A stretch of DNA of 64,000 nt. Origin: Eledone cirrhosa. Lineage: Eukaryota. The stretch lies in NCBI GenBank assembly GCA_964016885.1, contig OZ024744.1, positions 115,568,001 through 115,632,000 on the forward strand, in the 5' to 3' direction. The position numbers and the translations under genes were made by a program. The notes below the pieces were generated by a model. It worked only from the letters and a program-made list of their open reading frames with translations. It ran no database searches and was not told the DNA's origin. Positions 1 to 49,844 of the stretch are shown here, piece after piece. Each line of letters opens with the position of its first letter. Within the stretch, counting starts at the first letter, position 1.

Positions 1-3000
1 TTAATGTTGAGGATGTGTGAAGGGTAGATTGTATGATGTCTATGTTACATGGTAGTGAGACATGGGTATTGAATGTAGAGGATGTGTGAAGGGTAGATTG
101 TATGATGTCTGTGTATGTTACATGGTAGTGTGACATGGGTAGTTAATGTAGAGGATGTGTGAAGGGTAGATTGTATGATGTCTGTGTATGTTACATGGTA
201 GTGAGACATGGGTAGTTAATGTAGAGGATGTGTGAATGGTAGATTGTAAGATGTCTGTGTATGTTGCATGGTAGTGAGATATGGGTAGTTAATGTAGAGG
301 ATGTGTGAAGGGTAGATTGTAAGATGTCTGTGTATGTTACATGGTAGTGAGACATGGGTAGTTAATGTAGAGGATGTGTGAATGGTAGATTGTAAGATGT
401 CTGTGTATGTTACATGGTAGTTAGACATGGGTAGTTAATGTAGAGGATGTGTGAAGGGTAGATTGTAAGATGTCTGTGTATGTTACATGGTAGTTAGACA
501 TGGGCAGTTAATGTAGAGGATGTGTGAAGGGTAGATTGTATGATGTCTGTGTATGTTACATGGTAGTGTGACATGGGTAGTTAATGTAGAGGATGTGTGA
601 AGGGTAGATTGTATGATGTCTGTGTATGTTACATGGTAGTGAGCCATGGGTAGCTAATGTAGAGGATGTGTGAAGGGTAGATTGTATGATGTCTATGTTA
701 CATGGTAGTGAGACATGGGTATTGAATGTAGAGGATGTGTGAAGGGTAGATTGTATGATGTCTGTGTATGTTACATGGTAGTGAGACATGGGTAGTTAAT
801 GTAGAGGATGTGTGAAGGGTAGATTGTATGATGTCTGTGTATGTTACATGGTAGTGTGACATGGGTAGTTAATGAAGAGGATGTGTGAAGGGTAGATTTA
901 TGATATCTATGTTACATGGTAGTGAGACATGGGTAGTTAATGTAGAGGATGTGTGAATGGTAGATTGTATGATGTCTGTGTATGTTACATGGTAGTGAGA
1001 CATGGGTAATTAATGTAGAGGATGTGTGAAGGGTAGATTGTATGATGTCTGTGTATGTTACATGGTAGTGTGACATGGGTAGTTAATGTAGAGGATGTGT
1101 GAAGGGTAGATTGTATGATGTCTGTGTATGTTACATGGTAGTGAGACATGGGTAGTTAATGTAGAGGATGTGTGAAGGGTAGATTGTATGATGTCTATGT
1201 TACATGGTAGTGAGACATGGGTATTGAATGTAGAGGATGTGTGAAGGGTAGATTGTATGATGTCTGTGTATGTTACATGGTAGTGTGACATGGGTAGTTA
1301 ATGTAGAGGATGTGTGAAGGGTAGATTGTATGATGTATGTGTTACATGGTAGTGGGACATGGTTAGTTAATGTAGAGGATGTGTGAAGGGTAGATTGTAT
1401 GATGTCTATGTTACATGGTAGTGAGACATGGGTATTGAATGTAGAGGATGTGTGAAGGGTAGATTGTATGATGTCTGTGTATGTTACATGGTAGTGAGAC
1501 ATGGGTAGTTAATGTAGAGGATGTGTGAAGGGTAGATTGTATGATGTCTGTGTATGTTACATGGTAGTTAGACATGGGTAGTTAATGTAGAGGATGTGTG
1601 AAGGGTAGATTGTAAGATGTCTGTGTATGTTACATGGTAGTGAGACATGGGTAGTTAATGTAGAGGATGTGTGAATGGTAGATTGTAAGATGTCTGTGTA
1701 TGTTACATGGTAGTGAGACATGGGTAGTTAATGTAGAGAATGTGTGAAGGGTAGATTGTATGATATCTGTGTATGTTACATGGTAGTGAGACATGGGTAG
1801 TTAATATAGAGGATGTGTGAATGGTAGATTGTAAGATGTCTGTGTATGTTGCATGGTAGTGAGATATGGGTAGTTAATGTAGAGGATGTGTGAAGGGTAG
1901 ATTGTAAGATGTCTGTGTATGTTACATGGTAGTGGGACATGGGTAGTTAATGTAGAGGATGTGTGAATGGTAGATTGTAAGATGTCTGTGTATGTTACAT
2001 GGTAGTTAGACATGGGTAGTTAATGTAGAGGATGTGTGAAGGGTAGATTGTAAGATGTCTGTGTATGTTACATGGTAATGAGACATGGGTAGTTAATGTA
2101 GAGGATGTGTGAATGGTAGATTGTACGATGTCTGTGTATGTTACATGGTAGTTAGACATGGGCAGTTAATGTAGAGGATGTGTGAAGGGTAGATTGTATG
2201 ATGTCTGTGTATGTTAGATGGTAGTGAGCCATGGGTAGTTAATGTAGAGGATGTGTGAAGGGTAGATTGTATGATGTCTATGTTACATGGTAGTGAGACA
2301 TAGGTAGTTAATGTAGAGGATGTGTGAAGGGTAGATTGTATGATGTCTGTGTATGTTACATGGTAGTGGGACATGGGTAGTTAATGTAGAGGATGTGTGA
2401 AGGGTAGATTGTATGATGTCTGTGTATGTTACATGGTAGTGAGCCATGGGTAGCTAATGTAGAGGATGTGTGAAGGGTAGATTGTATGATGTCTATGTTA
2501 CAAGGTAGTGAGACATGGGTATTGAATGTAGAGGATGTGTGAAGGGTAGATTGTATGATGTCTGTGTATGTTACATGGTAGTGAGACATGGGTAGTTAAT
2601 GTAGAGGATGTGTGAAGGTTAGAGTGTATGATGTCTGTGTATGTTACATGGTAGTGGGACATGGGTAGTTAATGTAGAGGATGTGTGAAGGGTAGATTAT
2701 ATGATATCTGCGTATGTTACATGGTAGTGAGACATGGGTAATTAATGTAGAGGATGTGTGAAGGGTAGATTGTATGATGTCTGTGTATGTTACATGGTAG
2801 TGAGACATGGGTAATTAATGTAGAGGATGTGTGAAGGGTAGATTGTATGATGTCTGTGTATGTTACATGGTAGTGATACATGTGTAGTTAATGTAGAGGA
2901 TGTGTGAAGGGTAGAGTGTATGATGTCTGTGTATGTTACATGGTAGTGTGACATGGGTAGTTAATGTAGAGGATGTGTGAAGGGTAGATCGTATGATATC

Positions 3001-6000
3001 TATGTTACAAGGTAGTGAGATATGGGTAGTTAATGTAGAGGATGTGTGAAGGGTAGATTGTAAGATGTCTGTGTATGTTACATGGTAGTGAGACATGGGT
3101 AGTTAATGTAGAGGATGTGTGAATGGTAGATTGTATGATATCTATGTTACATGGTAGTGAGACATGGGTAGTTAATGTAGAGGATGTGTGAAGGGTAGAT
3201 TGTAAGATGTCTGTGTATGTTACATGGTAGTTAGACATGGGCAGTTAATGTAGAGGATGTGTGAAGGGTAGATTGTATGATGTCTGTGTATGTTACATGG
3301 TAGTGGGACATGGGTAGTTAATGTAGAGGATGTGTGAAGGGTAGATTGTATGATGTCTGTGTATGTTACATGGTAGTGAGCCATGGGTAGCTAATGTAGA
3401 GGATGTGTGAAGGGTAGATTGTATGATGTCTATGTTACATGGTAGTGAGACATGGGTAGTTAATGTAGAGGATGTGTGAAGGGTAGATTGTATGATATCT
3501 ATGTTACATGGTAGTGTAACATGGGTAGTTAATGTAGAGGATGTGTGAATGGTATATTGTATGATGTCTATGTTATATGGTAGTGAGACATGGGTAGTTA
3601 ATGTAGAGGATGTGTGAAGGGTAGATTGTATGATGTCTGTGTTACATGGTAGTGAGACATGGGTATTGAATGTAGAGGATGTGTGAAGGGTAGATTGTAT
3701 GATGTCTGTGTATGTTACATGGTAGTGAAACATGGGTAGTTAATGTAGAGGATGTGTGAAGAGAAGATTGTATGATGTCTGTGTATGTTACATGGTAGTG
3801 AGACATGGGTAGTTAATGTAGAGGATGTGTGAAGGCTAGATTGTATGATGTCTGTGTTACATGGTAGTGAGACATGGGGAGTTAATGTAGAGGATGTGTG
3901 AAGGGTAGATTGTATGATGTCTGTGTATGTTACATGGTAGTGAGACATGGTTATTGAATGTAGAGGATGTGTGAAGGGTAGATTGTATGATGTCTGTGTA
4001 TGTTACATGGTAGTGAGACATGGATATTGAATGTAAAGGATGTGTGAGGGGTAGATTGTATGATGTCTATGTTACATGGTAGTGGGACATGGGTAGTAAA
4101 TGTAGAGGATGTGTGAATGGTAGATTGTATGATGTCTGTGTATGTTACATGGTAGTGAGACATGGGTAGGTAATGTAGAGGATGTGTGAAGGGTAGATTG
4201 TATGATGTCTATGTTACATGGTAGTGAGAGATGGGTAGTAAATGTAGAGGATGTGTGAAGGGTAGATTGTATGATGTCTGTGTATGTTACATGGTAGTGA
4301 GACATGGGTAGTTAATGTAGAGGATGTGTGAAGGGTAGATCGTATGATGTCTGTGTATGTTACATGGTAGTGAGACATGGGTAGGTAATGTAGAGGATGT
4401 GTGAAGGGTAGATCGTATGATGTCTATGTTACATGGTAGTGAGAGATGGGTAGTAAATGTAGAGGATGTGTGAAGGGTAGATTGTATGATGTCTGTGTAT
4501 GTTACATGGTAGTGAGACATGGGTAGGTAATGTAGAGGATGTGTGAAGGGTAGATTGTATGATGTCTGTGTATGTTACATGGTAGTGAGACATGGGTAGT
4601 TAATGTAGAGGATGTGTGAAGGGTAGATCGTATGATGTCTGTGTATGGTACATGGTAGTGAGACATGGGTAGGTAATGTAGAGGATGTGTGAAGGGTAGA
4701 TCGTATGATGTCTATGTTACATGGTAGTGAGAGATGGGTAGTAAATGTAGAGGATGTGTGAATGGTAGATTGTATGATGTCTGTGTATGTTACATGGTAG
4801 TGAGACATGGGTAGGTAATGTAGAGGATGTGTGAAGGGTAGATCGTATGATGTCTATGTTACATGGTAGTGAGAGATGGGTAGTAAATGTAGAGGATGTG
4901 TGAAGGGTAGATTGTATGATGTCTGTGTATGTTACATGGTAGTGAGACATGGGTAGGTAATGTAGAGGATGTGTGAAGGGTAGATTGTATGATGTCTGTG
5001 TATGTTACATGGTAGTGAGACATGGGTAGTTAATGTAGAGTATGTGTGAAGGGTAGATCGTATGATGTCTGTGTATGTTACATGGTAGTGAGACATGGGT
5101 AGGTAATGTAGAGGATGTGTGAAGGGTAGATCGTATGATGTCTATGTTACATGGTAGTGAGAGATGGGTAGTAAATGTAGAGGATGTGTGAAGGGTAGAT
5201 TGTATGATGTCTGTGTATGTTACATGGTAGTGAGACATGGGTAGGTAATGTAGAGGATGTGTGAACGGTAGATTGTATGATGTCTGTGTATGTTACATGG
5301 TAGTGAGACATGGGTAGGTAATGTAAAGGTTGTGTGAAGGGTAGATCGTATGATGTCTGTGTATGTTACATGGTAGTGTGACATGGGTAGGTAATGTAGA
5401 GGATGTGTGAAGGGTAGATTGTATGATGTCTATGTTACATGGTAGTGAGACATGGGTGGTTAATGTAGAGGATGTGTGAAGGGTAGATCGTATGATGTCT
5501 ATGTTACATGGTAGTGAGAGATGGGTAGTAAATGTAGAGGATGTGTGAAGGGTAGATTGTATGATGTCTGTGTATGTTACATGGTAGTGAGACATGGGTA
5601 GGTAATGTAGAGGATGTGTGAAGGGTAGATTGTATGATGTCTGTGTATGTTACATGGTAGTGAGACATGGGTAGTTAATGTAGAGGATGTGTGAAGGGTA
5701 GATCGTATGATGTCTATGTTACATGGTAGTGAGAGATGGGTAGTAAATGTAGAGGATGTGTGAAGGGTAGATTGTATGATGTCTATGTTACATGGTAGTG
5801 AGACATGGGTAGTAAATGTAGAGGATGTGTGAATGGTAGATTGTATGATGTATGTGTTACATGGTAGTGAGACATGGTTATTGAATGTAGAGGATGTGTG
5901 AATGGTAGATTGTATGATGTATGTGTTACATGGTAGTGAGACATGGTTATTGAATGTAGAGGATGTGTGAAGGGTAGATTGTATGATGTGTGTATGTTAC

Positions 6001-9000
6001 ATGGTAGTGTGACATGGGTAGTTAATGTAGAGGATGTGTGAAGGGTAGATTGTATGATGTCTGTGTATGTTACATGGTAGTGTGACATGGGTAGTTAATG
6101 TAGAGGAAGTGTGAAGGGTAGATTGTATGATGTCTGTGTATGTTACATGGTAGTGAGACATGGGTAGTTAATGTAGAGGATGTGTGAAGGGTAGATTGTA
6201 TGATGTCTATGTTACATGGTAGTGAGACATGGGTATTGAATGTAGAGGATGTGTGAAGGGTAGATTGTATGATGTCTGTGTATGTTACATGGTAGTGTGA
6301 CATGGGTAGTTATTGTAGAGGATGTGTGAAGGGTAGATTGTACGATGTCTGTGTTACATGGTAGTGAGACATGGGTAGTTAATGTAGAGGATGTGTGAAG
6401 GGTAGAGTGTATGATGTATGTGTTACATGGTAGTGGGACATGGTTAGTTAATGTAGAGGATGTGTGAAGGGTAGATTGTATGATGTCTATGTCACATGGT
6501 AGTGAGACATAGGTAGTCAATGTAGAGGATGTGTGAAGGGTAGATTGTATGATGTCTGTGTATGTTACATGGTAGTGAGACATGGGTAGTTAATGTAGAG
6601 GATGTGTGAAGGGTAGATTGTATGATGTCTGTGTATGTTACATGGTAGTTAGACATGGGTAGTTAATGTAGAGGATGTGTGAAGGGTAGATTGTAAGATG
6701 TCTGTGTATGTTACATGGTAGTGAGACATGGGTAGTTAATGTAGAGGATGTGTGAATGGTAGATTGTAAGATGTCTGTGTATGTTACATGGTAGTGAGAC
6801 ATGGGTAGTTAATGTAGAGGATGTGTGAAGGGTTGATTGTATGATATCTGTGTATGTTACATGGTAGTGAGACATGGGTAGTTAATGTAGAGGATGTGTG
6901 AATGGTAGATTGTAAGATGTCTGTGTATGTTACATGGTAGTGAGCTATGGGTAGTTAATGTAGAGGATGTGTGAAGGGTAGATTGTAAGATGTCTGTGTA
7001 TGTTACATGGTAGTGAGACATGGGTAGTTAATGTAGAGGATGTGTGAATGGTAGATTGTAAGATGTCTGTGTATGTTACATGGTAGTTAGACATGGGTAG
7101 TTAATGTAGAGGATGTGTCAAGGGTAGATTGTAAGATGTCTGTGTATGTTACATGGTAGTTAGACCTGGGCAGTTAATGTAGAGGATGTGTGAAGGGTAG
7201 ATTGTAAGATGTCTGTGTATGTTACATGGTAGTGAGACATGGGTAGTTAATGTAGAGCATGTGTGAATGGTAGATTGTAAGATGTCTGTGTATGTTACAT
7301 GGTAGTGAGACATGGGTAGTTAATGTAGAGGATGTGTGAAGGGTAGATTGTATGATGTCTATGTTACATGGTAGAGAGACATGGGTAGTTAATGTAGAGG
7401 ATGTGTGAAGGGTAGATTGTATGATGTCTGTGTATGTTACATGGTAGTGAGACATGGGTAGTTAATGTAGAGGATGTGTGAAGGGTAGATTGTATGATGT
7501 CTGTGTATGTTACATGGTAGTGGGACATGGGTAGTTAATGTAGAGGATGTGTGAGGGGTAGATTGTATGATGTCTGTGTATGTTACATGGTAGTGAGCCA
7601 TGGGTAGTTAATGTAGAGGATGTGTGAAGGGTAGATTGTATGATGTCTGTGTTACATGGTAGTGAGACATGGGTAGTTAATGTAGAGGATGTGTGAAGGG
7701 TAGAGTGTATGATGTATATGTATGTTACATGGTAGTGGGCCATGGGTAGGTAATGTAGAGGATGTGTGAAGGGTAGATTGTATGATGTCTATGTTACATG
7801 GTAGTGATACATGGGTATTGAATGTAGAGGATGTGTGAAAGGTAGATTGTATGATGTCTGTGTTACATGGTAGTGAGACATGGGTAGTTAATGTAGAGGA
7901 TGTGTGAAGGGTAGAGTGTATGATGTCTGTGTTACATGGTAGGGAGAAATGGGTAGTTAATGTAGAGGATGTGTGAAGGGTAGATTGTATGATGTCTGTG
8001 TATGTTACATGGTAGAGAGACATGGGTAGTTAATGTAGAGGATGTGTGAAGGGTAGATTGTATGATGTCTGTGTATGTTACATGGTAGAGAGACATGGGT
8101 AGTTAATGTAGAGGATGTGTGAAGGGTAGATTGTATGATGTCTGTGTATGTTACATGATAGTGAGACATGGGTAGTTAATGTAGAGGATGTGTGAATGGT
8201 AGATTGCAAGATGTCTGTGTATGTTACATGGTAGTTAGACATGGGTAGTTAATGTAGAGGATGTGTGAAGGGTAGATTGTAAGATGTCTGTGTATGTTAC
8301 ATGGTAGTTAGACATGGGCAGTTAATGTAGAGGATGTGTGAAGGGTAGATTGTAAGATGTCTGTGTATGTTACATGGTAGTGAGACATGGGTAGTTAATG
8401 TAGAGGATGTGTGAATGGTAGATTGTAAGATGTCTGTGTATGTTACATGGTAGTGAGACATGGGTAGTTAATGTAGAGGATGTGTGAAGGGTAGATTGTA
8501 TGATGTCTATGTTACATGGTAGTGAGACATGGGTAGTAAATGTAGAGGATGTGTGAATGGTAGATTGTATGATGTATGTGTTACATGGTAGTGAGACATG
8601 GTTATTGAATGTAGAGGATGTGTGAATGGTAGATTGTATGATGTATGTGTTACATGGTAGTGAGACATGGTTATTGAATGTAGAGGATGTGTGAAGGGTA
8701 GATTGTATGATGTGTGTATGTTACATGGTAGTGTGACATGGGTAGTTAATGTAGAGGATGTGTGAAGGGTAGATTGTATGATGTCTGTGTATGTTACATG
8801 GTAGTGTGACATGGGTAGTTAATGTAGAGGAAGTGTGAAGGGTAGATTGTATGATGTCTGTGTATGTTACATGGTAGTGAGACATGGGTAGTTAATGTAG
8901 AGGATGTGTGAAGGGTAGATTGTATGATGTCTATGTTACATGGTAGTGAGACATGGGTATTGAATGTAGAGGATGTGTGAAGGGTAGATTGTATGATGTC

Positions 9001-12000
9001 TGTGTATGTTACATGGTAGTGTGACATGGGTAGTTATTGTAGAGGATGTGTGAAGGGTAGATTGTACGATGTCTGTGTTACATGGTAGTGAGACATGGGT
9101 AGTTAATGTAGAGGATGTGTGAAGGGTAGAGTGTATGATGTATGTGTTACATGGTAGTGGGACATGGTTAGTTAATGTAGAGGATGTGTGAAGGGTAGAT
9201 TGTATGATGTCTATGTCACATGGTAGTGAGACATAGGTAGTCAATGTAGAGGATGTGTGAAGGGTAGATTGTATGATGTCTATGTCACATGGTAGTGAGA
9301 CATAGGTAGTCAATGTAGAGGATGTGTGAAGGGTAGATTGTATGATGTCTGTGTATGTTACATGGTAGTGAGACATGGGTAGTTAATGTAGAGGATGTGT
9401 GAAGGGTAGATTGTATGATGTCTGTGTATGTTACATGGTAGTTAGACATGGGTAGTTAATGTAGAGGATGTGTGAAGGGTAGATTGTAAGATGTCTGTGT
9501 ATGTTACATGGTAGTGAGACATGGGTAGTTAATGTAGAGGATGTGTGAATGGTAGATTGTAAGATGTCTGTGTATGTTACATGGTAGTGAGACATGGGTA
9601 GTTAATGTAGAGGATGTGTGAAGGGTTGATTGTATGATATCTGTGTATGTTACATGGTAGTGAGACATGGGTAGTTAATGTAGAGGATGTGTGAATGGTA
9701 GATTGTAAGATGTCTGTGTATGTTACATGGTAGTGAGCTATGGGTAGTTAATGTAGAGGATGTGTGAAGGGTAGATTGTAAGATGTCTGTGTATGTTACA
9801 TGGTAGTGAGACATGGGTAGTTAATGTAGAGGATGTGTGAATGGTAGATTGTAAGATGTCTGTGTATGTTACATGGTAGTTAGACATGGGTAGTTAATGT
9901 AGAGGATGTGTCAAGGGTAGATTGTAAGATGTCTGTGTATGTTACATGGTAGTTAGACCTGGGCAGTTAATGTAGAGGATGTGTGAAGGGTAGATTGTAA
10001 GATGTCTGTGTATGTTACATGGTAGTGAGACATGGCTAGTTAATGTAGAGCATGTGTGAATGGTAGATTGTAAGATGTCTGTGTATGTTACATGGTAGTG
10101 AGACATGGGTAGTTAATGTAGAGGATGTGTGAAGGGTAGATTGTATGATGTCTATGTTACATGGTAGAGAGACATGGGTAGTTAATGTAGAGGATGTGTG
10201 AAGGGTAGATTGTATGATGTCTGTGTATGTTACATGGTAGTGAGACATGGGTAGTTAATGTAGAGGATGTGTGAGGGGTAGATTGTATGATGTCTGTGTA
10301 TGTTACATGGTAGTGAGCCATGGGTAGTTAATGTAGAGGATGTGTGAAGGGTAGATTGTATGATGTATGTCTTACATGGTAGTGAGACATGGGTAGTTAA
10401 TGTAGAGGATGTGTGAATGGTAGATTGTATGATGTCTATGTTACATGGTAGTGAGACATGGGTAGTTAATGTAGAGGATGTGTGAAGGGTAGATTGTATT
10501 ATGTCTGTGTATGTTACATGGTAGTGAGACATGGGTAATTAATGTAGAGGATGTGTGAAGGGTAGATTGTATGATGTCTGTGTTACATGGTAGTGAGACA
10601 AGGGTAGTTAATGTAGAGGATGTGTGAAGGGTAGATTGTATGATGTATATGTATGTTACATGGTAGTGGGCCATGGGTAGGTAATGTAGAGGATGTGTGA
10701 AGGGTAGATTGTATGATGTCTATGTTACATGGTAGTGATACATGGGTATTGAATGTAGAGGATGTGTGAAAGGTAGATTGTATTATGTCTGTGTATGTTA
10801 CATGGTAGTGAGACATGGGTAATTAATGTAGAGGATGTGTGAAGGGTAGATTGTATGATGTCTGTGTTACATGGTAGTGAGACAAGGGTAGTTAATGTAG
10901 AGGATGTGTGAAGGGTAGATTGTATGATGTCTGTGTATGTTACATGGTAGTGAGACATGGGTAGTTAATGTAGAGGATGTGTGAAGGGTAGATTGTATGA
11001 TGTCTGTGTATGTTACATGGTAGTGGGACATGGGTAGTTAATGTAGAGGATGTGTGAGGGGTAGATTGTATGATGTCTGTGTATGTTACATGGTAGTGAG
11101 CCATGGGTAGTTAATGTAGAGGATGTGTGAAGGGTAGATTGTATGATGTCTGTGTTACATGGTAGTGAGACATGGGTAGTTAATGTAGAGGATGTGTGAA
11201 GGGTAGAGTGTATGATGTATATGTATGTTACATGGTAGTGGGCCATGGGTAGGTAATGTAGAGGATGTGTGAAGGGTAGATTGTATGATGTCTATGTTAC
11301 ATGGTAGTGATACATGGGTATTGAATGTAGAGGATGTGTGAAAGGTAGATTGTATGATGTCTGTGTTACATGGTAGTGAGACATGGGTAGTTAATGTAGA
11401 GGATGTGTGAAGGGTAGAGTGTATGATGTCTGTGTTACATGGTAGGGAGAAATGGGTAGTTAATGTAGAGGATGTGTGAAGGGTAGATTGTATGATGTCT
11501 GTGTATGTTACATGGTAGAGAGACATGGGTAGTTAATGTAGAGGATGTGTGAAGGGTAGATTGTATGATGTCTGTGTATGTTACATGGTAGAAAGACATG
11601 GGTAGTTAATGTAGAGGATGTGTGAAGGGTAGATTGTATGATGTCTGTGTATGTTACATGGTAGTGAGACATGGGTAGTTAATGTAGAGGATGTGTGAAT
11701 GGTAGATTGCAAGATGTCTGTGTATGTTACATGGTAGTTAGACATGGGTAGTTAATGTAGAGGATGTGTGAAGGGTAGATTGTAAGATGTCTGTGTATGT
11801 TACATGGTAGTTAGACATGGGCAGTTAATGTAGAGGATGTGTGAAGGGTAGATTGTAAGATGTCTGTGTATGTTACATGGTAGTGAGACATGGGTAGTTA
11901 ATGTAGAGGATGTGTGAATGGTAGATTGTAAGATGTCTGTGTAGGTTACATGGTAGTGAGACATGGGTAGTTAATGTAGAGGATGTGTGAAGGGTAGATT

Positions 12001-36000: not shown

Positions 36001-36348
36001 AAGGGTAGATTGTATGATGTCTATGTTACATGGTAGTGAGACATGGGTATTGAATGTAGAGGATGTGTGAAGGGTAGATTGTATGATGTCTGTGTATGTT
36101 ACATGATAGAGAGAAATGGGTAGTTAATGTAGAGGATGTGTGAAGGGTAGATTGTATGATGTCTGTGTATGTTACATGGTAGTGAAACATGGGTAGTTAA
36201 TGTAGAGGATGTGTGAAGGGTAGATAGTATGATGTCTGTGTTACATGGTAGTGAAACATGGGTAGTTAATGTAGAGGATGTGTGAAGGGTAGATTGTATG
36301 ATGTCTGTGTTACATGGTAGTGAGACATGGGTATTGAATATAGAGGAT
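1..36348 (+). repeat. Large tandem satellite, 73-bp monomer with 69-bp variants (~500 monomers), derived from an RTE-clade LINE coding fragment; continues beyond the window start
   Basis: Consensus atgtagaggatgtgtgaagggtagattgtatgatgtctgtgtatgttacatggtagtgagacatgggtagtta repeats head-to-tail. The 69-bp forms lack 4 bp (gtctatgttac or gtctgtgttac). The array ends abruptly at ...tagaggat (36348). The + strand translates in two frames as VKGRLYDVCV and MLHGSETWVVNVEDV. Confidence 0.97.
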
Positions 36349-37130: not shown

Positions 37131-37649
37131 TTAGATGCAGAATTTTTGGAATGTTTTACATATTTTTACTGTTCCATAAATGGATTGTACTTGTAATTTC
37201 CTAACTAGTTGTGTTCTTTCTGTTCCTGTGAAGCCCAGCTTCTCAAGATTTGTATTGAGGTAGTTACTAACATATCCCATGCCCCAATAATCACAGGTAT
37301 AATCAGGGTGGAGTATCTGCAGATTTCTCATCAGTTCTGCATAAATATTCTCCTTTTCGCTAATCTTTGATATTATATTGGCATCTGCTGGGCAGCTAAC
37401 TTCCACTACTGTGAATGCTTTCTTCTCCCTGTCCCATATCATTATATCAGGCCTATTATGCCTGCATTTTATTGGGGTTTTTACTGGAACATTCCACCAG
37501 TACTCTTTCATATTATGTACATGGATGTCTTCCACATTGCTGTAGCTTTTAATGTGTTTATTATCAGGGCTATCTTTTCTACGGATTGCATCGTACAGTG
37601 TTTTGGTCACTACGTCATACCTCATAGGTAGATAGTACCGCGATGACAT
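37131..37649 (-). pseudogene. REL endonuclease domain remnant (172-aa ORF) of the R4-like element
   Basis: HNRPDIMIWDREKKAFTVVEVSCPADANIISKISEKENIY matches the RPD..E...KY layout of REL endonucleases. The upstream frame has a stop and lacks the C-x2-C half of the zinc knuckle. Confidence 0.85.
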
Positions 37650-38107
37650 CTTTGGACAAGTGCTTATGACATGAGTGACATCTTCGATGTTAATTCTATC
37701 TCTTTTGCGAATCAGGTATTTTGTGCTGATTTTCTGTTCTTGGATTGCAAAAGCGTATCCTTAAAAGTGGGAGCAAATATAGCGGTTGTTGGTCCAAGAT
37801 AGACTACTTTCTTTATCTATATTGCTCTCACTCTGGAGCTTCCTGGCAACATATCCATGTATGATTTTTTATTGATAAGCATGCAGTTTTTCATCCATGT
37901 ATTCACTGCAGTAATGCTGGGTAATTTCCCTGGATGTGAGTTTTTGATTATCATACAAGGAATATTTCTCAAGGAGTTCCTTCCCAACTCTCATGATCTT
38001 ATCTGTCTCATGCAGATAGACTTGCTCAATAGAGGGGCTCCTACATTTGGAGATTCGTAAATGTTGTTGCAGGGATATCATGCTACACTCAACTGCTGCC
38101 TGGATGT

Positions 38108-40583
38108 TAGGCCTCCCCTGTTTCATGTAGAAGTGCTATATGTCACTACGCCTCCCCTGTTTCATGTAGAAGTGCTATATGTCACTAGGCCTGCCCTGTT
38201 TCATGTAGAAGTGGTATATGTCACTAGGTCTGCCCTGTTTCATGTAGAAGTGCTATATGTCACTAGGCCTCCCCTGTTTCATGTAGAAGTGCTATATGTC
38301 ACTAGGCCTCCCCTGTTTCATGTAGAAGTGGTATATGTCACTAGGCCTGCCCTGTTTCATGTAGAAGTGCTATATGTCACTAGGCCTCCCCTGTTTCATG
38401 TAGAAGTGGTATATGTCACTAGGCCTGCCCTGTTTCATGTAGAAGTGCTATATGTCACTAGGCCTGCCCTGTTTCATGTAGAAGTGCTATATGTCACTAG
38501 GCCTCCCCTGTTTCATGTAGAAGTGCTATATGTCACTAGGCCTCCCCTGTTTCATGTAGAAGTGGTATATGTCACTAGGCCTGCCCTGTTTCATGTAGAA
38601 GTGCTATATGTCACTAGGCCTCCCCTGTTTCATGTAGAAGTGGTATATGTCACTAGGCCTGCCCTGTTTCATGTAGAAGTGCTATATGTCACTAGACCTC
38701 CCCTGTTTCATGTAGAAGCGCTATATGTCACTAGGCCTCCCCTGTTTCATGTAGAAGTGCTATATGTCACTAGGCCTGCCCTGTTTCATGTAGAAGTGCT
38801 ATATGTCACTAGGCCTCTCCTGTTTCATGTAGAAGTGCTATATGTCACTAGGCCTGCCCTGTTTCATGTAGAAGTGCTATATGTCACTAGGCCTGCCCTG
38901 TTTCATGTAGAAGTGCTATATGTCACTAGGCCTCCCCTGTTTCATGTAGAAGTGCTATATGTCACTAGGCCTGCCCTGTTTCATATAGAAGTGCTATATG
39001 TCACTAGGCCTCCCCTGTTTCATGTAGAAGTGCTATATGTCACTAGGCCTCCCCTGTTTCATGTAGAAGTGCTATATGTCACTAGGCCTGCCCTGTTTCA
39101 TGTAGAAGTGCTATATGTCACTAGGTCTCCCCTGTTTCATGTAGAAGTGGTATATGTCACTAGGCCTCCCCTGTTTCATGTTGAAGTGGTATATGTCACT
39201 AGGTCTCCCCTGTTTCATGTAGAAGTGCTATATGTCACTAGGCCTCCCCTGTTTCATGTAGAAGCGCTATATATCACTAGGCCTCCCCTGTTTCATGTAG
39301 AAGTGCTATATATCACTAGGCCTCCCCTGTTTCATGTAGAAGTGCTATATGTCACTAGGCCTGCCCTGTTTCATGTAGAAGTGGTATATATCACTAGGCC
39401 TGCCCTGTTTCATGTAGAAGTGCTATATGTCACTAGGCCTGCCCTGTTTCATGTAGAAGTGGTATATGTCACTAGGCCTCCCCTGTTTCATGTAGAAGTG
39501 CTATATGTCACTAGGCCTCCCCTGTTTCATGTAGAAGTGCTATATGTCACTAGGCCTGCCCTGTTTCATGTAGAAGCGCTGTATGTCACTAGGCCTCCCC
39601 TGTTTCATGTAGAAGTGGTATATGTCACTAGGCCTCCCCTGTTTCATGTAGAAGTGTTATATGTCACTAGGCCTCCCCTGTTTCATGTAGAAGTGCTATA
39701 TGTCACTAGGCCACCCCTGTTTCATGTAGAAGTGGTATATGTCACTAGGCCTGCCCTGTTTCATGTAGAAGCGCTATATGTCACTAGGCCTGCCCTGTTT
39801 CATGTAGAAGTGCTATATGTCACTAGGCCTCCCCTGTTTCATGTAGAAGTGCTATATGTCACTAGGCCTCCCCTGTTTCATGTAGAAGCGCTATATGTCA
39901 CTAGGCCTCCCCTGTTTCATGTAGAAGTGCTGTATGTCACTAGGCCTCCCCTGTTTCATGTAGAAGTGCTGTATGTCACTAGGCCTCCCCTGTTTCATGT
40001 AGAAGTGCTATATGTCACTAGGCCTGCCCTGTTTCATGTAGAAGTGCTATATGTCACTAGGCCTGCCCTGTTTCATGTAGAAGTGCTATATGTCACTAGG
40101 CCTGCCCTGTTTCATGTAGAAGCGCTATATATCACTAGGCCTCCCCTGTTTCATGTAGAAGTGCTGTATGTCACTAGGCCTGCCCTGTTTCATGTAGAAG
40201 TGCTATATGTCACTAGGTCTCCCCTGTTTCATGTAGAAGCGCTATATATCACTAGGCCTCCCCTGTTTCATGTAGAAGCGCTATATGTCACTAGGCCTGC
40301 CCTGTTTCATGTAGAAGTGCTATATGTCACTAGGCCTCCCCTGTTTCATGTAGAAGTGCTATATGTCACTAGGCCTCCCCTGTTTCATGTAGAAGTGCTA
40401 TATGTCACTAGGCCTCCCCTGTTTCATGTAGAAGTGTTATATGTCACTAGGCCTGCCCTGTTTCATGTAGAAGTGCTATATGTCACTAGGCCTCCCCTGT
40501 TTCATGTAGAAGCGCTATATATCAGTGTGATATGTTAGGCCTCTCCTGTTTCATGTAGAAGCGCTATATGTCAGTGTGATATG
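38108..40583. repeat. 39-bp minisatellite (~62 copies) plus a terminal 49-bp unit, amplified from within the R4-like ORF
   Basis: Unit taggcctcccctgtttcatgtagaagtgctatatgtcac; its minus strand reads SDI*HFYMKQGRP. Element sequence is contiguous on both sides (GTGNVHI.. upstream; NIQAAVECSMISLQQHL downstream). Confidence 0.96.
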
Positions 40584-41360
40584 GACATTTCCAGTGCCAG
40601 AACTTTTGGGTTTGTAACATCAATGACTTGGCTCTTATCTAACTTCCAGTCAAGTAGTTCAAATGTTGATGTTAGGACAGGCTAAACAAACTTATTGTGG
40701 ATTTATTGTGTACAGAGATTTCAGATGACCATATTTTTCTTATTTGGATGTTATATTCCCTGGTTAATTGTTCCTTGTTACAAATTCTAACATAGAATAT
40801 GTTCTTATCTATCCCTCATCAAATACTAGTGAAACAGTTAGGCCATTGATGAAAATGTTGCTAGATTGGCTTGTAGTTTTTCCTCACTTTACAATCATAT
40901 AAGAACATTTATCTTGGCCAAACTCCATTCCTATATCTTTCGAGAACATTGTAACCAGGTGAAGGTTTTTCTTCATCCCATCTATGTTCTTGGCATAGTT
41001 TCAGGTCATCCACAAAGAAATGATGGGTTAAGTTCGTATATCTGTCCTCCTGTGAACCAATGATGTATCCTTCACATTTCTTGAGCAGAAAGGACAAGGA
41101 GTTTAATGACAAGATAAATAGTATCAGAGAGAGACTGTCTCCTTGAAATATACCCCTGTGATGATCTATTTTATCAGTGAAAATAGATTCCTCCTTCTCT
41201 GTCTTAGGATAGTGACCCTGGAAGAAGATAGTTTCTCTATGGCTCTGATAATAATGTATGGGACTTTAGAAAGTCGGAGAGCCTCTATCATCCAAGTGGG
41301 GAACAGAATTTAAATCTTTCTTCTAATCCAGCCAGACAAAGTACCTCTTATGTTGCAGCA

Positions 41361-42431: not shown

Positions 42432-43148
42432 TAACATTTACATTACTCTATATATACTATTGTATTTTCACAGTAAAGGCTTTACCTCACATAATATCTC
42501 ACATAACATTTACATTACTCTATATATACTATTGTATTTTCACAGTAAAGTCTTTACTTCACATAATATCTCGCATAACATTTACATTATTCTATATATA
42601 CTACTAGCTGAGGTACCCGGTAATACCCAGGAGCGGGGGTATTCCCAGTTCCCATTAAAATGCCCAATCAATGCCTCTCAGACCAAAAATGAAATCAAAA
42701 TATAGGACAGATAATCAAAAGCGAAGACAAATTCATTTACGAAACAATGACACAAACAAATATTGTTGAGTGCATTGGTCAGGCGAAAAAATGTTTGTCA
42801 GAGAAGTTGAGTGTTGCTATAAGGAAAAAAATAGAACTCCCATTAGGGTGTCTTAATATTATTTAAATATTAATATTGAATAGGCATTATATCTTGTCAT
42901 TTACCTATGGTTTAAATTCCATATAAATCGATGGGAAAAAATTAAGCGGGGGTTTTCAGCTGGGTTTGAACCCCCGGGAACCCTTTGATTAAAATGAAAT
43001 ATACGCAAGAAATCAAATGGGCATGAGCCCCACACATGTGTCAAGTTTCATCAAGATCGGTTTGGTAGTTTTTGAGTTTTAGGTTCACAAACAAACAGAC
43101 AGAAATTGCCATATATTTTCACAGTAAAGGCTTTACCCCAAATAATAT
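42432..43148. repeat. 72-bp tandem repeat, three copies, the third split by a Helitron-like insertion
   Basis: taacatttacatta at 42432, 42504 and 42576. The third copy stops at ...tatatacta (42603) and resumes as tattttcacagtaaaggctttacc at ~43114. Confidence 0.88.
42604..43112 (-). mobile_element. Non-autonomous Helitron-like element (~510 bp)
   Basis: Minus-strand 3' end CTAG (plus ctag 42604-42607) is followed by host T. An imperfect GC-rich hairpin (cccggtaatacccagg) lies ~8 nt inside. The opposite end, aagtttcatcaagatcggtt...acaaacaaacagacaga, resembles Lep1-type non-autonomous Helitrons. Inserted at an A^T with no TSD; the 5' TC end is not visible. Confidence 0.7.
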
Positions 43149-43438: not shown

Positions 43439-43460
43439 GTGTACTAAAGATAAACTATGA

Positions 43461-44078: not shown

Positions 44079-46306
44079 CCTTTGGTCAGGAATGACCATG
44101 GGATTTGCATCTAGAAAGTTCCCCTCCAGGGCACAAATCAAAGGAAAGTTGTATTTGTGGAAAACCAGCAGTCATCCATACATACCAATCTTCCCTCTCC
44201 ACATCATCAATGTTGTCCAATGGTTGATACAGCTTGGCACTAGTGATGTGATAACATACAATATATATACATTATATATTGGAAGGAGAAAACTCTTAGT
44301 GTGAAATTGGGGTTTGAAATAAATCTTTTGTGACATCAGTCCTGGAACTTTTCTGACACACCTCGTAGACTCTATATATATTGTTGTCCAAGGTAACGGC
44401 AAAGGCCAGCACAGCTTGGCACCAGTGACAATCATAATTATAGATATAACTTTGATAGGTTTCGGCCAGTATTGGCCCAGGGCATGTCTAACTTAATAGC
44501 ACCACCTGGCAACACTATATATGTATTATATATGATGTTGTCAAAGGGAAAGGTAATGTCTGATACAGCTTGGTACCAGTGACATCACAACTATATATAT
44601 ACTATATATATTATATATGATGTTGTCCAAGGGAAAGGTAATGTCTGATACAGCTTGGTACCAGTGACATCACAACTATATATATACTATATATATATAT
44701 TATATATGATGTTGTCCAAGGGAAAGGTAATGTCTGATACAGCTTGGTACCAGTGACATCACAACTATATATATACTATATATATTATATATGATGTTGT
44801 CCAAGAGAAAGGTAATGTCTGATACAGCTTGGTACCAGTGACATCACAACTATATATATACTATATATATATTATATATGATGTTGTCCAAGGGAAAGGT
44901 AATGTCTGAAACAGCTTGGTACCAGTGACATCACAACTATATATATACTATATATATATATTATATATGATGTTGTCCAAGGGAAAGGTAATGTCTGATA
45001 CAGCTTGGTACCAGTGACATCACAACTATATATATACTATATATATTATATATGATGTTGTCCAAGGGAAAGGTAATGTTTGATACAGCTTGGTACCAGT
45101 AACATCACAACTATATATATACTATATATATATATTATATATGATGTTGTCCAAGAGAAAGGTAATGTCTGATACAGCTTGGTACCAGTGACATCACAAG
45201 TATATATATACTATATATATATTATATATGATGTTGTCCAAGGCAGAGGTAATGTCTGATACAGCTTGGTACCAGTGACATCACAACTATATATATACTA
45301 TATATATTATATATGATGTTGTCCAAGGGAAAGGTAATGTCTGATACAGCTTGGTACCAGTGACATCACAACTATATATATACTATATATATTATATATG
45401 ATGTTGTCCAAGAGAAAGGTAATATCTGATACAGCTTGGTACCAGTGACATCACAACTATATATATACTATATATATTATATATGATGTTGTCCAAGAGA
45501 AAGGTAATATCTGATACAGCTTGGTACCAGTGACATCACAACTATATATATACTATATATATTATATATGATGTTGTCCAAGAGAAAGGTAATGTCTGAT
45601 ACAGCTTGGTACCAGTGACATCACAACTATATAGATACTATATATATATTATATATGATGTTGTCCAAGAGAAAGGTAATGTCTGATACAGCTTGGTACC
45701 AGTAACATCACAACTATATATATACTATATATATATATTATATATGATGTTGTCCAAGGGAAAGGTAATGTCTGATACAGCTTGGTACCAGTGACATCAC
45801 AACTATATATATACTATATATATATTATATATGATGTTGTCCAAGGGAAAGGTAATGTCTGATACAGCTTGGTACCAGTGACATCACAACTATATATATA
45901 CTATATATATTATATATGATGTTGTCCAAGGGAAAGGTAATGTCTGATACAGCTTGGTACCAGTGACATCACAACTATATATATACTATATATATTATAT
46001 ATGATGTTGTCCAAGGGACAGGTAATGTCTGATACAGCTTGGTACCAGTGACATCACAACTATATATATACTATATATATATTATATATGATGTTGTCCA
46101 AGAAAGGTAATGTCTGATACAGCTTGGTACCAGTGACATCACTACTATATATATATTATATATGATGTTGTCCAAGGGAAAGGTAATGTCTGATACAGCT
46201 TGGTACCAGTGACATCACAACCTATTTCTAGAGCTGAGTAAACTGGAGCAACATGAAATAAAGTGTGTTGCTCAAGGACACAACACATCACCAGGTCCAG
46301 GTATCG
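44079..46306 (-). mobile_element. SINE (family A-type head) with a body segment expanded into the 85-89-bp array
   Basis: The array exits directly into cctatttctagagctgagtaaactggagcaacatgaaataaagtgtgttgctcaaggacacaac, matching 49160-49220 and the reverse complement of ~43895-43950. The left part 44079-44250 leads into the same gttgtccaa...gatacagcttggcac segment. The left boundary is partly from recollection of this repeat family. Confidence 0.7.
44514..46221. repeat. 85-89-bp minisatellite (~20 copies): constant ~57-bp core plus a variable (TA)n spacer
   Basis: Core gatgttgtccaagggaaaggtaatgtctgatacagcttggtaccagtgacatcacaac followed by tatatatatactatatata(ta)nttatatat. gacatcacaa occurs at 44581, 44666 and 44755. 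Confidence 0.96.
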
Positions 46307-46338
46307 CCATACTTCACTGAATCACCTATACTATATAT

Positions 46339-46459: not shown

Positions 46460-46474
46460 ATGTATACACTTGTC

Positions 46475-48590
46475 ACATGCTAAAATCAGTCAGTTGGAAT
46501 TTTCAGACGACATGATGTTACTTAACCCGACAGAAGGTGACTTTCAACATGCCCTTAGGCATTAGGTTTGATGCAGAGTGCTACATGACGGGAATCAAAA
46601 TTAGTGCAGCGAAAACTGAGACACTCGTCCTCTCAAAGAAGCCTGCACAGTACACTCTATATGAGAATGGAGTTCCACTGAAGCAGGTAGTGAAGTTCAA
46701 GTATCTCGGGGCCATGTTCACGGGTGATGGAAGGCAGGAGGCTGAATTAAGTGCAAGAATTGCAGGAGCTGATGTAGTAATGTACCAGCTTCACCATTTA
46801 GTAATCAGAAGGGAGATAGATGTAAATACCAAACGCGCTACCTTCAATTCAGTATTCATGCCAACCCTTACCTATGGTCATGATTCTTGGGTAATGACCG
46901 AAAGAATATGATCCCAAATATAAGGAGCTGAAATGGGTTTGGGGATAAGGTTACTTACTGAAAGATCACAACTCTGATACTATGACATGTGGTTAGAATG
47001 TCTCAGGAAAGAATCTCTGAATTGAGAGATCACAGCGCTGATACTACAGACATGTGGTTAGAATGTCTCAGGAAAGAATCTCTGAATTGAGAGATACTCT
47101 GATACTATGACATGTGTTTAGAATGTCTCAGGAAAGAATCTCTGAATTGAGAGATCACAGCTCTGATACTACAGACATGTGGTTAGAATGTCTCAGGAAA
47201 GAATCTCTGAATTGAGAGATCACAGCTCTGATACTATGTACATGTGGTTAGAATGTCTACGGAAAGAATCTCTGAATTGAGAGGTCACAGCTCTGATTCT
47301 ACAGACATGTGGTTAGAATGTCTCAGGAAAGAATCTCTGAATTGAGAGGTCACAACTCTGATACTATGGACATGTGGTTAGAATGTCTCAGGAAAGAATC
47401 TCTGAATTGAGAGATCACAGCTCTGATACTATGACATGTGGTTAGAATGTCTCAGGAAAGAATCTCTGAATTGAGAGGTCACAACTCTGATACTATGACA
47501 TGTGGTTAGGATGTCTCAGGAAAGAATCTCTGAATTGAGAGGTCACAACTCTGATACTATGACATGTGGTTAGGATGTCTCAGGAAAGAATCACTGTATT
47601 GAGAGATCACAGCTCTGATACTATGACATGTGGTTAGAATGTCTCAGGAAAGAATCTCTGAATTGAGAGATCACAACTCTGATACTATGACATGTGGTTA
47701 GAATGTCTCAGGAAAGAATCTCTGAATTGAGAGGTCACAACTCTGATACTATGACATGTGGTTAGGATGTCTCAGGAAAGAATCACTGTATTGAGAGATC
47801 ACAGCTCTGATACTATGACATGTGGTTAGAATGTCTCAGGAAAGAATCTCTGAATTGAGAGATCACAACTCTGATACTATGACATGTGGTTAGAATGTCT
47901 CAGGAAAGAATCTCTGAATTGAGAGATCACAGCTCTGATACTATGACATGTGGTTAGAATGTCTCAGGAAAGAATCTCTGAATTGAGAGATCACAGCTCT
48001 GATACTATGACATGAGGTTAGAATGTCTCAGGAAAGAATCTCTGAATTGAGAGATCACAGCTCTGATACTATGACATGTGGTTAGAATGTCTCAGGAAAG
48101 AATCTCTGAATTGAGAGATCACAGCTCTGATACTATGACATGTGGTTAGAATGTCTCAGGAAAGAATCTCTGAATTGAGAGATCACAGCTCTGATACTAT
48201 GACATGTGGTTAGAATGTCTCAGGAAAGAATCTCTGAATTGAGAGATCACAGCTCTGATACTACAGACATGTGGTTAGAATGTCTCAGGAAAGAATCTCT
48301 GAATTGAGAGGTCACAACTCTGATACTATGACATGTGGTTAGAATGTCTCAGGAATGAATCTCTGGACAAATTTTACGGGCAAAGGCAACCGGCAAGAGA
48401 CCCAGGGCTAGACCCTAACCAAGATAGTTGGATAACATCCATGAGCTTGGCTGGCCTCAGTTGGGGATTCAGCTGGATCAGTTGGTGACGGTTGCTTCTG
48501 ACAGGACCTGCTGGAAGGAGGGTTTGAGAACTCCGCCCCCATAATCCTCTCAAGAATATATGGGCAAAGAAGAATAAGAGGATGATGTCC
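46475..48590 (+). mobile_element. 5'-truncated decayed RTE-clade LINE (Expander/Rex3-like), interrupted by a 64-bp array
   Basis: QLEFSDDMMLL (FADD), GIKISAAKTE, FKYLG, PTLTYGHDSWVMTERI*SQI*GAEMG, [array], then GQILRAKATGKRPRARP*PR*LDNIHELGWPQLGI..VASDRTCW, ending in a purine-rich gaagaataagaggatgatg tail. Confidence 0.9.
46958..48365 (+). repeat. 64/65-bp minisatellite (~22 copies) amplified from the RTE ORF C-terminal region
   Basis: Unit attgagagatcacagctctgatactatgacatgtggttagaatgtctcaggaaagaatctctga. The 65-bp copy at 47341 reads IERSQL*YYGHVVRMSQERIS in frame. Confidence 0.96.
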
Positions 48591-48751: not shown

Positions 48752-48865
48752 AATTGTTTCTACTTTTGGCACAAGGCCAGCAATTACCCAGTGCATTACT
48801 GCTACTTTATTTTATCAGTAATGCACTGGGTAATTGCTGGCCTTGTGCCAAATGTAGAAACAATT
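48752..48865. repeat. Near-perfect inverted repeat (50-bp arms, 1 mismatch, 14-nt loop) built from the family B SINE 3' tail
   Basis: 48752-48801 aattgtttctacttttggcacaaggccagcaattacccagtgcattactg versus 48816-48865 cagtaatgcactgggtaattgctggccttgtgccaaatgtagaaacaatt. Arm plus loop match ~49726-49790. Confidence 0.93.
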
Positions 48866-49300: not shown

Positions 49301-49844
49301 TAACTTATGAAATAATTGTTTCTACTATTGGCACAAGGCCAGCAATTGCCAGTGTATTACTGGTACTTTATTTTATCGACCCCGAAAGGATGAAGGGCAA
49401 AGTTAACCTCGGCGGGATTTGAACACATAATGGCAAGGGCCGTAACTCTATGCGTCAAAGCATGGTGTCCGACACTCTACCGATACTGCCAATCCAACGC
49501 CCTTTATAACTTATGAAATAATTGTTTCTACTTTAGGCACAAGGCCAACAATTATCCAGTGCATTACAGGTACTCTTATTTTATTGACCCCGTAAGGATA
49601 AAAGTCAAAGTTAACCTCGGCGGGATTTGAACTCAGATCGTAAAGGGACGTAACTATGCTGGAAAGCATGGCGTCCGACCCTCTACCGATACTGCCAATC
49701 CACCGCCCTTTATAACTTATGAAATAATTGTTTCTACTTTAGGCACAAAGCCAGCAATTACCCAGTGCATTACTGGTACTTTATTTTATCGACCCCGTAA
49801 GGATGAAAGGCAAAGTCAACCTCGGCTATAACTTATGAAATAAT
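49300..49844 (-). mobile_element. Three tandem copies of a second tRNA-derived SINE (family B), each bounded by the same 17-bp direct repeat
   Basis: ataacttatgaaataat at 49300, 49506, 49712 and 49828. Minus-strand heads have A box tggcagtatcgg and B box g(a/t)gttcaaatcc. The third copy lacks the head (116-bp unit versus 206 bp). Confidence 0.85.

What the first reader, a model, noticed from the sequence alone, without database searches (positions are those of the whole stretch)
1..49844. A 'satellite nursery': tandem arrays repeatedly born from retroelement interiors
Seen: four independent arrays correspond to internal retroelement segments, namely 73 bp x~500 (RTE ORF), 39 bp x~62 (R4-like ORF), 85-89 bp x~20 (SINE body) and 64 bp x~22 (RTE ORF). 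Low-copy tandem duplications add further stages (75 bp x4, 51 bp x2, 72 bp x3, 206 bp x2.6). Three of the four arrays still sit in register inside their parent element. Known: TE-derived satellites exist, usually described case by case. Inference: this density and the 2-to-500-copy series suggest a regional or lineage-wide microhomology-primed amplification process acting on 40-90-bp units. All three LINE-derived units come from the segment just C-terminal to the RT core. More speculatively, such arrays could act as amplified TE 'memory' producing small RNAs.
Basis: partly seen in the sequence, partly recalled or inferred. Interest (0 to 1): 0.85.

Follow-up and report, generated by a model that had tools for sequence, protein, structure and literature searches.

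The report
Satellites hopping between retrotransposon copies
Short pieces of old jumping genes form tandem repeat blocks here, and two of these blocks sit with near-identical units inside many unrelated copies of their parent element, so they likely spread between those copies by recombination rather than arising afresh at each site, which would give satellite DNA a ready-made network of landing places.

Summary
The four arrays are real and come from two RTE-like LINEs, an R4-like LINE and a SINE-like repeat. The 'regional nursery' reading fails its own test: in 78 unbiased 10-kb samples 30 of 70 arrays matched dispersed repeats against 256 of 700 random segments (P=0.17); the post-RT bias fits 5' truncation; microhomology is inconclusive (P=0.07). 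'In register' does not mean born in place. The 64/65-bp array ends in register in 100 loci, 56 on three small chromosomes. Host flanks are as unlike as unrelated copies (80%), yet unit consensuses of nine distal-C28 hosts are 99.7% alike, and a 1-bp-deletion variant ends 6 of 11 C28 arrays and 0 of 89 elsewhere. The window and a locus 3 Mb away share a sharply bounded 356-bp tract (98%) between flanks of 76-81%, a conversion signature. The 85-bp SINE array behaves alike. Best reading: repeated births at a few element segments, then spread and homogenisation by recombination between homologous copies. Closest known: squamate SINE-derived satellites; Rsp-like spread in Drosophila. The scan noted TE-derived satellites elsewhere in this genome; my look-ups found no note of the host/unit mismatch. 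Small-RNA role untested.

The parts
1..36348 (+). 73/69-bp satellite from the post-RT part of an old RTE-like LINE ('RTE-A', aa about 956-984 of a 1103-aa relative); detached from any parent flank; begins 6.8 kb upstream of the window, about 599 units
37134..38107 (-). 3' part of the R4-like host (aa 203-566 of a relative's ORF, 77% identity)
38108..40524 (-). 39-bp array x62 in register in the R4-like host; two paralogous array-plus-host copies (60 and 12 units, flanks 94-97% alike) on contig C282
40487..40583 (-). 49-bp dimer at the element-5' end of the 39-bp array; likely the founder duplication from which the 39-mer arose by a 10-bp loss (inferred from the sequence)
40595..41162 (-). 5' part of the R4-like host (aa 2-194, frameshifted)
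44518..46221 (+). 85-89-bp array: 60-bp SINE-like core plus a derived (TA)n spacer; the same core (0 differences in 7 of 9 array pieces) sits in other SINE hosts at C28:115.1-117.8 Mb
46222..46300 (+). SINE-like 3' continuation in register with the last 85-bp unit; there is no in-register 5' host
46461..46602 (+). RTE-B host, 5' part outside the shared tract (56 of 74 aligned letters alike to the C28:118.60 host)
46603..46958 (+). RTE-B host tract shared at 350 of 356 letters with an otherwise unrelated host 3.0 Mb away: candidate gene-conversion tract running into the array
46959..48365 (+). 64/65-bp array x22 from the IERSQL..GHVVRMSQER stretch of RTE-B; deletion variant typical of distal C28; family ends in register in 100 loci
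48366..48575 (+). RTE-B host 3' part in register; 79-84% alike to other hosts, 80-82% to the C28:118.60 host
42432..42603 (+). 72-bp x2.4 repeat from a dispersed element; paralogous arrays of 32 and 8 units at C28:118.62 Mb

Best explanation
The arrays are tandem copies of 39-85-bp pieces of old LINEs and a SINE-like repeat, and the 64-bp and 85-bp ones sit with near-identical units inside many unrelated host insertions, so they were likely born a few times by local duplication and then likely spread and kept uniform by recombination between homologous element copies, mostly within a chromosome. Step 1 (shown): certain element segments are duplicated repeatedly with different periods. Step 2 (inferred): slippage or break repair at short, often imperfect repeats makes the first dimer; unequal exchange expands it. 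Step 3 (shown as a pattern, inferred as a process): units are much younger than their hosts, variants are chromosome-specific, and one sharply bounded conversion-like tract joins two hosts. Every dispersed copy of the parent offers one unit of homology plus homologous flanks, so double-strand-break repair from an array-bearing copy, or integration of an excised array circle, would leave an array in perfect register in a new host. Whether arrays are copied into single-unit hosts (about 0.45) or born locally and then overwritten by neighbours (about 0.3) is not resolved. The 39-bp array looks like one birth later duplicated with its host; the 73-bp array is a detached, expanded copy of a family anchored at C28:106.82 Mb. 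No function is needed.
For: 100 loci with junction + unit + in-register 3' RTE-B flank, against 2296 single-unit hosts by a matching pattern; 56 of 100 on C25-C27, 2.5% of the genome, and 10 of 100 on C1-C4, 54% (hand tally). 3' flank identity among 9 distal-C28 hosts 80.1%, among 22 'CA'-variant hosts 81.6%, among 23 single-unit copies 80.9%, between groups 80.5-81.1%; unit consensus 99.7% and 98.3%; a single middle unit 94.3% and 95.9% against 86.5% for single copies. 11 of 11 C28 arrays of 4 or more units are 0-1 letters from the window's consensus, while 0 of 28 single copies lie within 1 letter of the family majority, mean 5.6. Deletion variant in the last unit: 6 of 11 on C28, 0 of 89 elsewhere, P=4e-7. 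16 arrays with host on both sides: flanks 81-84%, units 96%. Window vs C28:118.60: 56/74 outside, 350/356 inside a tract, 3' flank 80%. A single-unit host at C28:119.50 carries the satellite's deletion variant; single-unit hosts with the 'CA' variant are dense on C23 and C26 (13 of 61). SINE-85: first 100 of 331 junction matches all on C28:115.1-117.8 Mb, in 7 arrays by my count; core identical, hosts 78-93% alike. Repeated births.
Against: The flank tree is star-like and weak: only 3 of 51 inner branches are well supported and they force just 2 label changes, so a host subfamily is not formally excluded by the tree. A consensus averages out later mutation, though single middle units still show the gap. 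Terminal units are not significantly more host-like once arrays without both flanks are dropped (P=0.056 and 0.42, 16 arrays). The pattern required one junction, so junction identity across the 100 loci is ascertained. The 'CA' variant also occurs in single copies on large chromosomes (22 of 61 on C1-C4), so it can arise without the satellite. Only one clear conversion tract was found among the array pairs compared; three other near-identical pairs are plain duplications. 12 of 43 arrays with both ends seen lack a 5' host, so other routes of movement exist. 47-bp RTE-A arrays differ between hosts by eye, which fits local births. Host density on C25-C27 was not measured.
Confidence: 0.75

Rival explanations
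1. One reading: each array was born independently where it sits, by a regional microhomology-primed amplification of 40-90-bp post-RT units.
For: Many periods from one RTE-A segment; 47-bp arrays with host-like differences; 49-bp dimer next to the 39-bp array; a 7-nt repeat bounds a CR1-derived 27-mer in 12 of 12 parents; tandem DNA covers 41-55% of C28 samples against 20-21% elsewhere.
Against: Independent births would carry host mutations (mean 5.6 per unit) but C28 consensuses differ by 0-1; no TE enrichment; array counts per sample are alike in distal C28 and C5-C19; mean junction homology 3.4 vs null 2.9, P=0.07.
Confidence: 0.08
2. An RTE-B master already carrying the duplication retrotransposed, and the arrays later expanded and homogenised within each locus.
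For: All 100 loci share junction and register; contigs under another organism label hold the same junction, so the family may be old.
Against: Array hosts are no closer to each other than to single copies, and their commonest flank changes are mostly at CpG sites as in single copies; the deletion variant is confined to C28; within-locus homogenisation would let arrays drift apart, not stay identical.
Confidence: 0.08
3. The arrays were multiplied only by segmental duplication of host plus array.
For: True for the 39-bp copies on C282 (flanks 94-97%) and for three pairs of 64/65-bp loci with both flanks 99-100% alike.
Against: Most hosts differ by 15-20% on both sides while units do not; the window/118.60 pair shares only an internal tract.
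Confidence: 0.04
4. The arrays are kept as amplified 'memory' that yields small RNAs against the parent elements.
For: None from tools; inference only. Units are 77-90% like old subfamilies, so cross-targeting is conceivable.
Against: The 73-mer scores far lower against the young, abundant RTE-A subfamily (62 vs 84-98 for old copies), which a defence would need to hit; TE-derived arrays are not over-represented.
Confidence: 0.07
5. The arrays are assembly artefacts.
For: Array lengths were not checked against long reads.
Against: Units vary (92-95% matches); raw reads of two other samples hold the tandem junction; paralogous arrays differ in copy number and flanks.
Confidence: 0.02

Closest known systems
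SINE-derived satellites (sSat1-3) of squamates, Vassetzky et al. 2023, PMC10702118 (read parts 1, 2 and 4 of 5 and found passages; supplements not seen)
   Same: Arrays of a 67-290-nt element segment with element sequence at either end, at many loci, units more alike (89%) than the SINE copies (64%), longer arrays more uniform, subtelomeric preference.
   Different: Here LINE ORF segments as well as a SINE; host flanks were compared with units locus by locus; chromosome-specific variants, converted single-unit hosts and a bounded conversion tract were seen. In the parts read the authors invoke initial unequal recombination and concerted evolution and do not test flank/unit discordance; their supplements may bear on this.
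Spread of Rsp-like into 1.688 clusters in Drosophila simulans/mauritiana, Sproul et al. 2020, PMC7403614 (abstract and found passages)
   Same: A young satellite appears at many loci already holding an older homologous repeat; interlocus conversion or eccDNA reintegration proposed; discordant similarity of young and old parts.
   Different: There the landing pad is another satellite joined through a hybrid repeat; here it is the dispersed parent retroelement and the array lands in register on its own source segment.
LINE ORF-related satellites (chicken HinfI/CR1, hamster PROsat/L1 ORF2) and human TE-derived minisatellites, as reviewed by Zattera and Bruschi 2022, PMC9659126 (section 2.2 and found passages)
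   Same: Tandem repeats from LINE ORF2 or any part of an element.
   Different: The review finds no conclusive evidence that particular portions are preferred; here two RTE segments each seed several periods, though enrichment over copy number is shown only weakly.

Membership tests
TE-derived satellite DNA | head-to-tail array of a complex unit | tested here: met
TE-derived satellite DNA | unit homologous to an internal segment of a dispersed element, beyond chance | tested here: met
   shuffled sample units gave 0 nucleotide hits in 3 rounds
Squamate-type element-anchored satellites (sSat-like) | element sequence at array ends, many loci, units more alike than elements | tested here: met
   64/65-mer and 85-mer; the 73-mer in the window has no flanks
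Squamate-type element-anchored satellites (sSat-like) | subtelomeric preference | tested here: inconclusive
   loci on C1, C2, C3 and C28 are mostly distal, those on C25 are spread along it; telomeres not mapped
RTE-clade LINE (parents of the 73- and 64-mers) | single ORF with apurinic endonuclease and reverse transcriptase | tested here: met
   RTE-A relative L153: Exo_endo_phos 93-311, RVT_1 623-823; for RTE-B only a 242-aa piece with RVT_1 was held
RTE-clade LINE (parents of the 73- and 64-mers) | placement in the RTE clade by RT phylogeny | not tested
R4/Dong-type LINE (parent of the 39-mer) | RT followed by a CCHC knuckle and a restriction-like endonuclease | tested here: inconclusive
   RVT_1 at 26.4 bits, under the 29.6 cut-off; no Pfam endonuclease hit; Cys/His and PD..E motifs seen by eye; clade not tested
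SINE (parent of the 85-mer) | tRNA-derived Pol III head and LINE-related tail | not tested
   only dispersed, non-coding homologues shown; label recalled
Microhomology-primed tandem duplication | exact short repeat at both unit ends in the parent, above chance | tested here: inconclusive
   12 of 13 families had parents; mean 3.4 nt vs 2.86, P=0.07; parents are diverged stand-ins
piRNA/siRNA source locus | small RNAs mapping to the arrays | not testable with these tools
   no RNA holder listed

The most novel reading that the evidence does not exclude
Satellite homing: once an array forms inside one copy of a retroelement it copies itself, in register, into the matching single segment of other, unrelated copies, so the thousands of dead LINE and SINE copies form a chromosome-biased network of landing pads, and satellite variants sweep through that network chromosome by chromosome.
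Probability: 0.45. Interest if true: 0.75.

Novelty: new variant of a known kind. Interest (0 to 1): 0.55.

Why it matters
How a satellite reaches new loci is a long-standing question, usually hard to test because flanks are unrelated. Here each array has a datable, alignable host, so donor, recipient and tract ends can be read. It also warns that 'array in register inside its parent' is not proof of birth in place, an inference often made. About 100 loci of one family with chromosome-specific variants give a direct assay of ectopic recombination between dispersed repeats in a large animal genome.

Tried and rejected
TE enrichment among arrays: none (30 of 70; 9 of 25 for 10 or more copies; null 256 of 700 and 77 of 250; 6 same-locus repeats of the 76 arrays were dropped first; library 0.97 Mb so both figures are lower bounds; samples did not include C20-C27). 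A unique RTE-A hotspot: a control motif 60 aa downstream also seeded a 43-bp satellite; over the comparable span 4 vs 2 loci with dispersed counts 3 vs 5, too few to call. Post-RT preference: three of three is unremarkable given coverage shares of 0.48 and 0.96 and 3'-heavy depth on RTE-B. Terminal-unit asymmetry: strong in 30 arrays, not significant in the 16 with both flanks. Parents for 75x4, 51x2, the 59-bp neighbour satellite and the 19-21-bp satellite: none convincing. Higher-order period in the 73/69 pattern: none (top autocorrelation 0.13). The RVT_1 search returned CR1-like and Gypsy-like elements, not the parents. No RNA holder listed. The far-flank part failed; absence of shared non-element flanks rests. 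Literature searches for an octopus or cephalopod report and for interlocus conversion among retrotransposon-embedded repeats listed no matching paper; I saw listings only, and the library lacks most subscription journals.

Full report
Setting. The window is G000:C28:115,568,001-115,632,000 of a 3.0-Gb animal assembly. Its repeats recall octopods; that label is recalled and echoed by earlier scan notes, not tested. I call the two RTE-like families RTE-A (parent of the 73-mer) and RTE-B (parent of the 64-mer).

Observation. TRF finds all arrays named. Translations and alignments place the 73-mer in RTE-A at about aa 956-984 of a 1103-aa relative whose RVT_1 domain ends at aa 823; the unit is about 10 bp shorter than the parent segment (parent periods 81-83). 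The 39-mer sits between aa 194 and 203 of an R4-like ORF, with 77% protein identity on the 3' side. The 64-mer sits in RTE-B between a 5' flank with deletions and an intact 3' flank. The 85-mer is a 60-bp SINE-like core plus a (TA)n spacer and is in register only at its 3' end. The 73-bp array has no parent flank in or upstream of the window; a 31-unit sister at C28:106.82 Mb starts with a parent-length segment and runs into aa 984-1035 of RTE-A. Of the low-copy repeats, 75x4 and 51x2 found no parent, 72x2.4 found 17, and 206x2.6 is a multimer of a common repeat. Raw reads of other samples hold the 64/65-bp junction.

I fetched 78 stretches of 10 kb at fixed positions: 38 on C28 and 40 on C1-C19. 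After dropping 6 same-locus repeats, 30 of 70 complex arrays matched dispersed sequence in two or more other loci, against 256 of 700 length-matched random segments (P=0.17). C28 is richer in tandem DNA (41-55% vs 20-21%), but arrays of five or more copies number 12 in 20 distal-C28 samples and 11 in 20 from C5-C19. Dispersed RTE-A coverage rises from near 0 at the 5' end to 25 at aa 1000-1050; 48% lies beyond aa 800, and 96% of R4-like coverage lies beyond aa 100 of the partial ORF. Three post-RT units of three are therefore unremarkable, and they are not the same segment. Exact junction homology averaged 3.4 nt over 12 families against 2.86 at random (P=0.07), with diverged stand-in parents.

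What does hold: repeated births. The RTE-A stretch around LHGSETW gave periods of 40, 42, 43, 47, 59/66, 73 and 96 bp on several contigs, including a 96-bp satellite sampled over 78 kb some 80-160 kb upstream of the window. A control motif 60 aa downstream also seeded a satellite, so this is not a unique site. On a 1,885-bp RTE-B copy, 12 of the 15 best-supported joints go back; six fall in 2015-2121 (several periods, raw reads of two samples), six in 2242-2293 (nearly all in another organism's contigs), none in 446-2014; 5,331 weaker joints were not shown and depth is 3'-heavy.

The unexpected result: young units in old, unrelated hosts. A pattern for junction + unit + RTE-B 3' flank matched exactly 100 places. 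By hand tally: C25 36, C27 12, C28 11 (all beyond 108 Mb), C26 8, C22 6, C1 6, others 21. A matching pattern for single-unit hosts gave 2,296, the first 100 within C1:0-174 Mb where only 2 arrays lie (that contrast with the genome mean alone is not significant, P=0.44). I examined 30 of the 100 loci as returned and fetched 20 more stretches. 3' flanks of 9 distal-C28 hosts (one duplicate dropped; L057 has a mixed consensus) are 80.1% alike, of 22 'CA'-variant hosts (one duplicate dropped) 81.6%, of 23 single copies 80.9%, with the same values between groups; unit consensuses are 99.7% and 98.3% alike and single middle units 94.3% and 95.9%, against 86.5% for single copies. The nine hosts need nine changes on the flank tree, but the tree is weak (3 of 51 branches well supported). 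A 1-bp-deletion variant ends 6 of 11 C28 arrays and 0 of 89 others. Several C28 arrays mix three variants. The window's host and the host at C28:118.60 Mb, inverted and 3.0 Mb away, are 56/74 alike with deletions up to window 46602, 350/356 alike from 46603 to the array, and 80% alike after it; the outer piece at 118.60 is itself RTE-B-like (79-88% to single copies). That is the shape of a conversion tract with both ends in homology; donor and recipient cannot be told apart. A single-unit host at C28:119.50 carries the deletion variant; of 61 single-unit hosts with the 'CA' variant, 13 lie on C23 and C26, none on C25 or C27, and 22 on C1-C4 (hand tally). The 85-bp family shows the same mismatch on a smaller scale: the first 100 of 331 junction matches lie on C28:115.1-117.8 Mb, cores are identical in 7 of 9 pieces, and SINE hosts are 78-93% alike over 54-117 letters. 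The 39-bp array differs: its two paralogues on C282 share host flanks at 94-97%, so it moved with its host.

Mechanism. Shown: derivation, repeated periods, host/unit discordance, chromosome-bound variants, one bounded tract. Inferred: first dimers from slippage or repair at short repeats; expansion by unequal exchange; transfer between hosts by homology-directed repair or circle integration, favoured within a chromosome. Copy-in to single-unit hosts (about 0.45) is favoured by the density on C25-C27 and by satellite-type single hosts; local birth followed by overwriting (about 0.3) stays open because host density there was not measured and terminal units gave no significant signal.

Known systems. 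Vassetzky et al. 2023 (PMC10702118; parts 1, 2 and 4 of 5 read; supplements not seen) describe many-locus SINE-derived arrays with element ends and units more alike than the SINEs. Sproul et al. 2020 (PMC7403614; passages) propose conversion or eccDNA for a satellite spreading into an older homologous one. Zattera and Bruschi 2022 (PMC9659126; section 2.2 and passages) list LINE-ORF satellites and find no conclusive preferred portion. A 2025 review (PMC12628747; two passages) states that satellites arise from element segments and that elements aid their dispersal. Searches listed no paper on this lineage's arrays or on arrays moving between parent copies; I saw listings only.

Verdict. A real cluster of TE-derived satellites, a known kind. 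The nursery statistics do not hold. The useful finding is the evidence that arrays move or are overwritten between unrelated copies of their own parent element. New variant of a known kind; interest 0.55.

Noticed in passing
window 49964-64000 and L031-L033 (to at least C28:115,673,000): 19-21-bp satellite of 55 kb or more, C-rich on the + strand, opposite in skew to the 73-bp array; no convincing parent found.
   Followed up: partly
L027-L029, L057 (C28:115.40-115.48 Mb): 96-bp satellite sampled over 78 kb, from an RTE-A segment overlapping the 73-mer and sharing about 39 identical letters with it.
   Followed up: partly
L024-L026, L059, L060, L023 (C28:115.49-115.56 Mb): 59-bp satellite of about 53 kb with no parent found, and a 54-bp array of about 128 units with weak likeness (80% over 40 letters) to a young RTE-A locus.
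   Followed up: partly
L023:874-1592, L038-L039, L162, L174, L179, L188, L198, L203, L205, L232: 46-51-bp arrays from a common dispersed repeat that already holds this segment as a dimer; the commonest TE-derived array in the random samples, 2 to over 300 units.
   Followed up: partly
L193 (C1:20.0 Mb), L170:9363-9915: Two arrays (27/29 bp x352, 61 bp x9) from the same 3' stretch of a CR1-like LINE; the 27-mer is bounded by a 7-nt exact repeat in the parent.
   Followed up: partly
window 42600-43135: A roughly 520-bp element interrupts the third 72-bp unit; its ends recall a non-autonomous Helitron. The 72-mer's parents start with a TTAA-CCCTT-like end that recalls piggyBac-type elements (both labels recalled).
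   Followed up: no
window 41608-41910 (-), 43315-43437 (-), 43437-43529 (+): Further LINE fragments: a second R4-like 3' piece, a CR1-like 3' end and an RTE-A PHD-finger piece.
   Followed up: partly
window 48740-48860: About 55-bp near-perfect inverted duplication of the 206-bp family's start.
   Followed up: no
L153:1783-5091: A young, very abundant RTE-A subfamily (155,574 first-look candidates, many with open frames over 1,000 aa) with a PHD finger inside the RT C-terminal region.
   Followed up: partly
L012:2242-2293, run X4: Contigs under another organism label show 38-52-bp go-back joints near the RTE-B 3' end that are almost absent from this organism's runs: a likely lineage-specific satellite.
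   Followed up: no
RTE-B unit boundary: CpG decay of the upstream CCG to CTG improves the match between the two ends of the 65-bp segment, so ageing of the element may create the junction homology.
   Followed up: no
L227:2921-4385: 84-bp x17.5 array that looks like C2H2 zinc-finger coding repeats (by eye), counted among the sample arrays.
   Followed up: no
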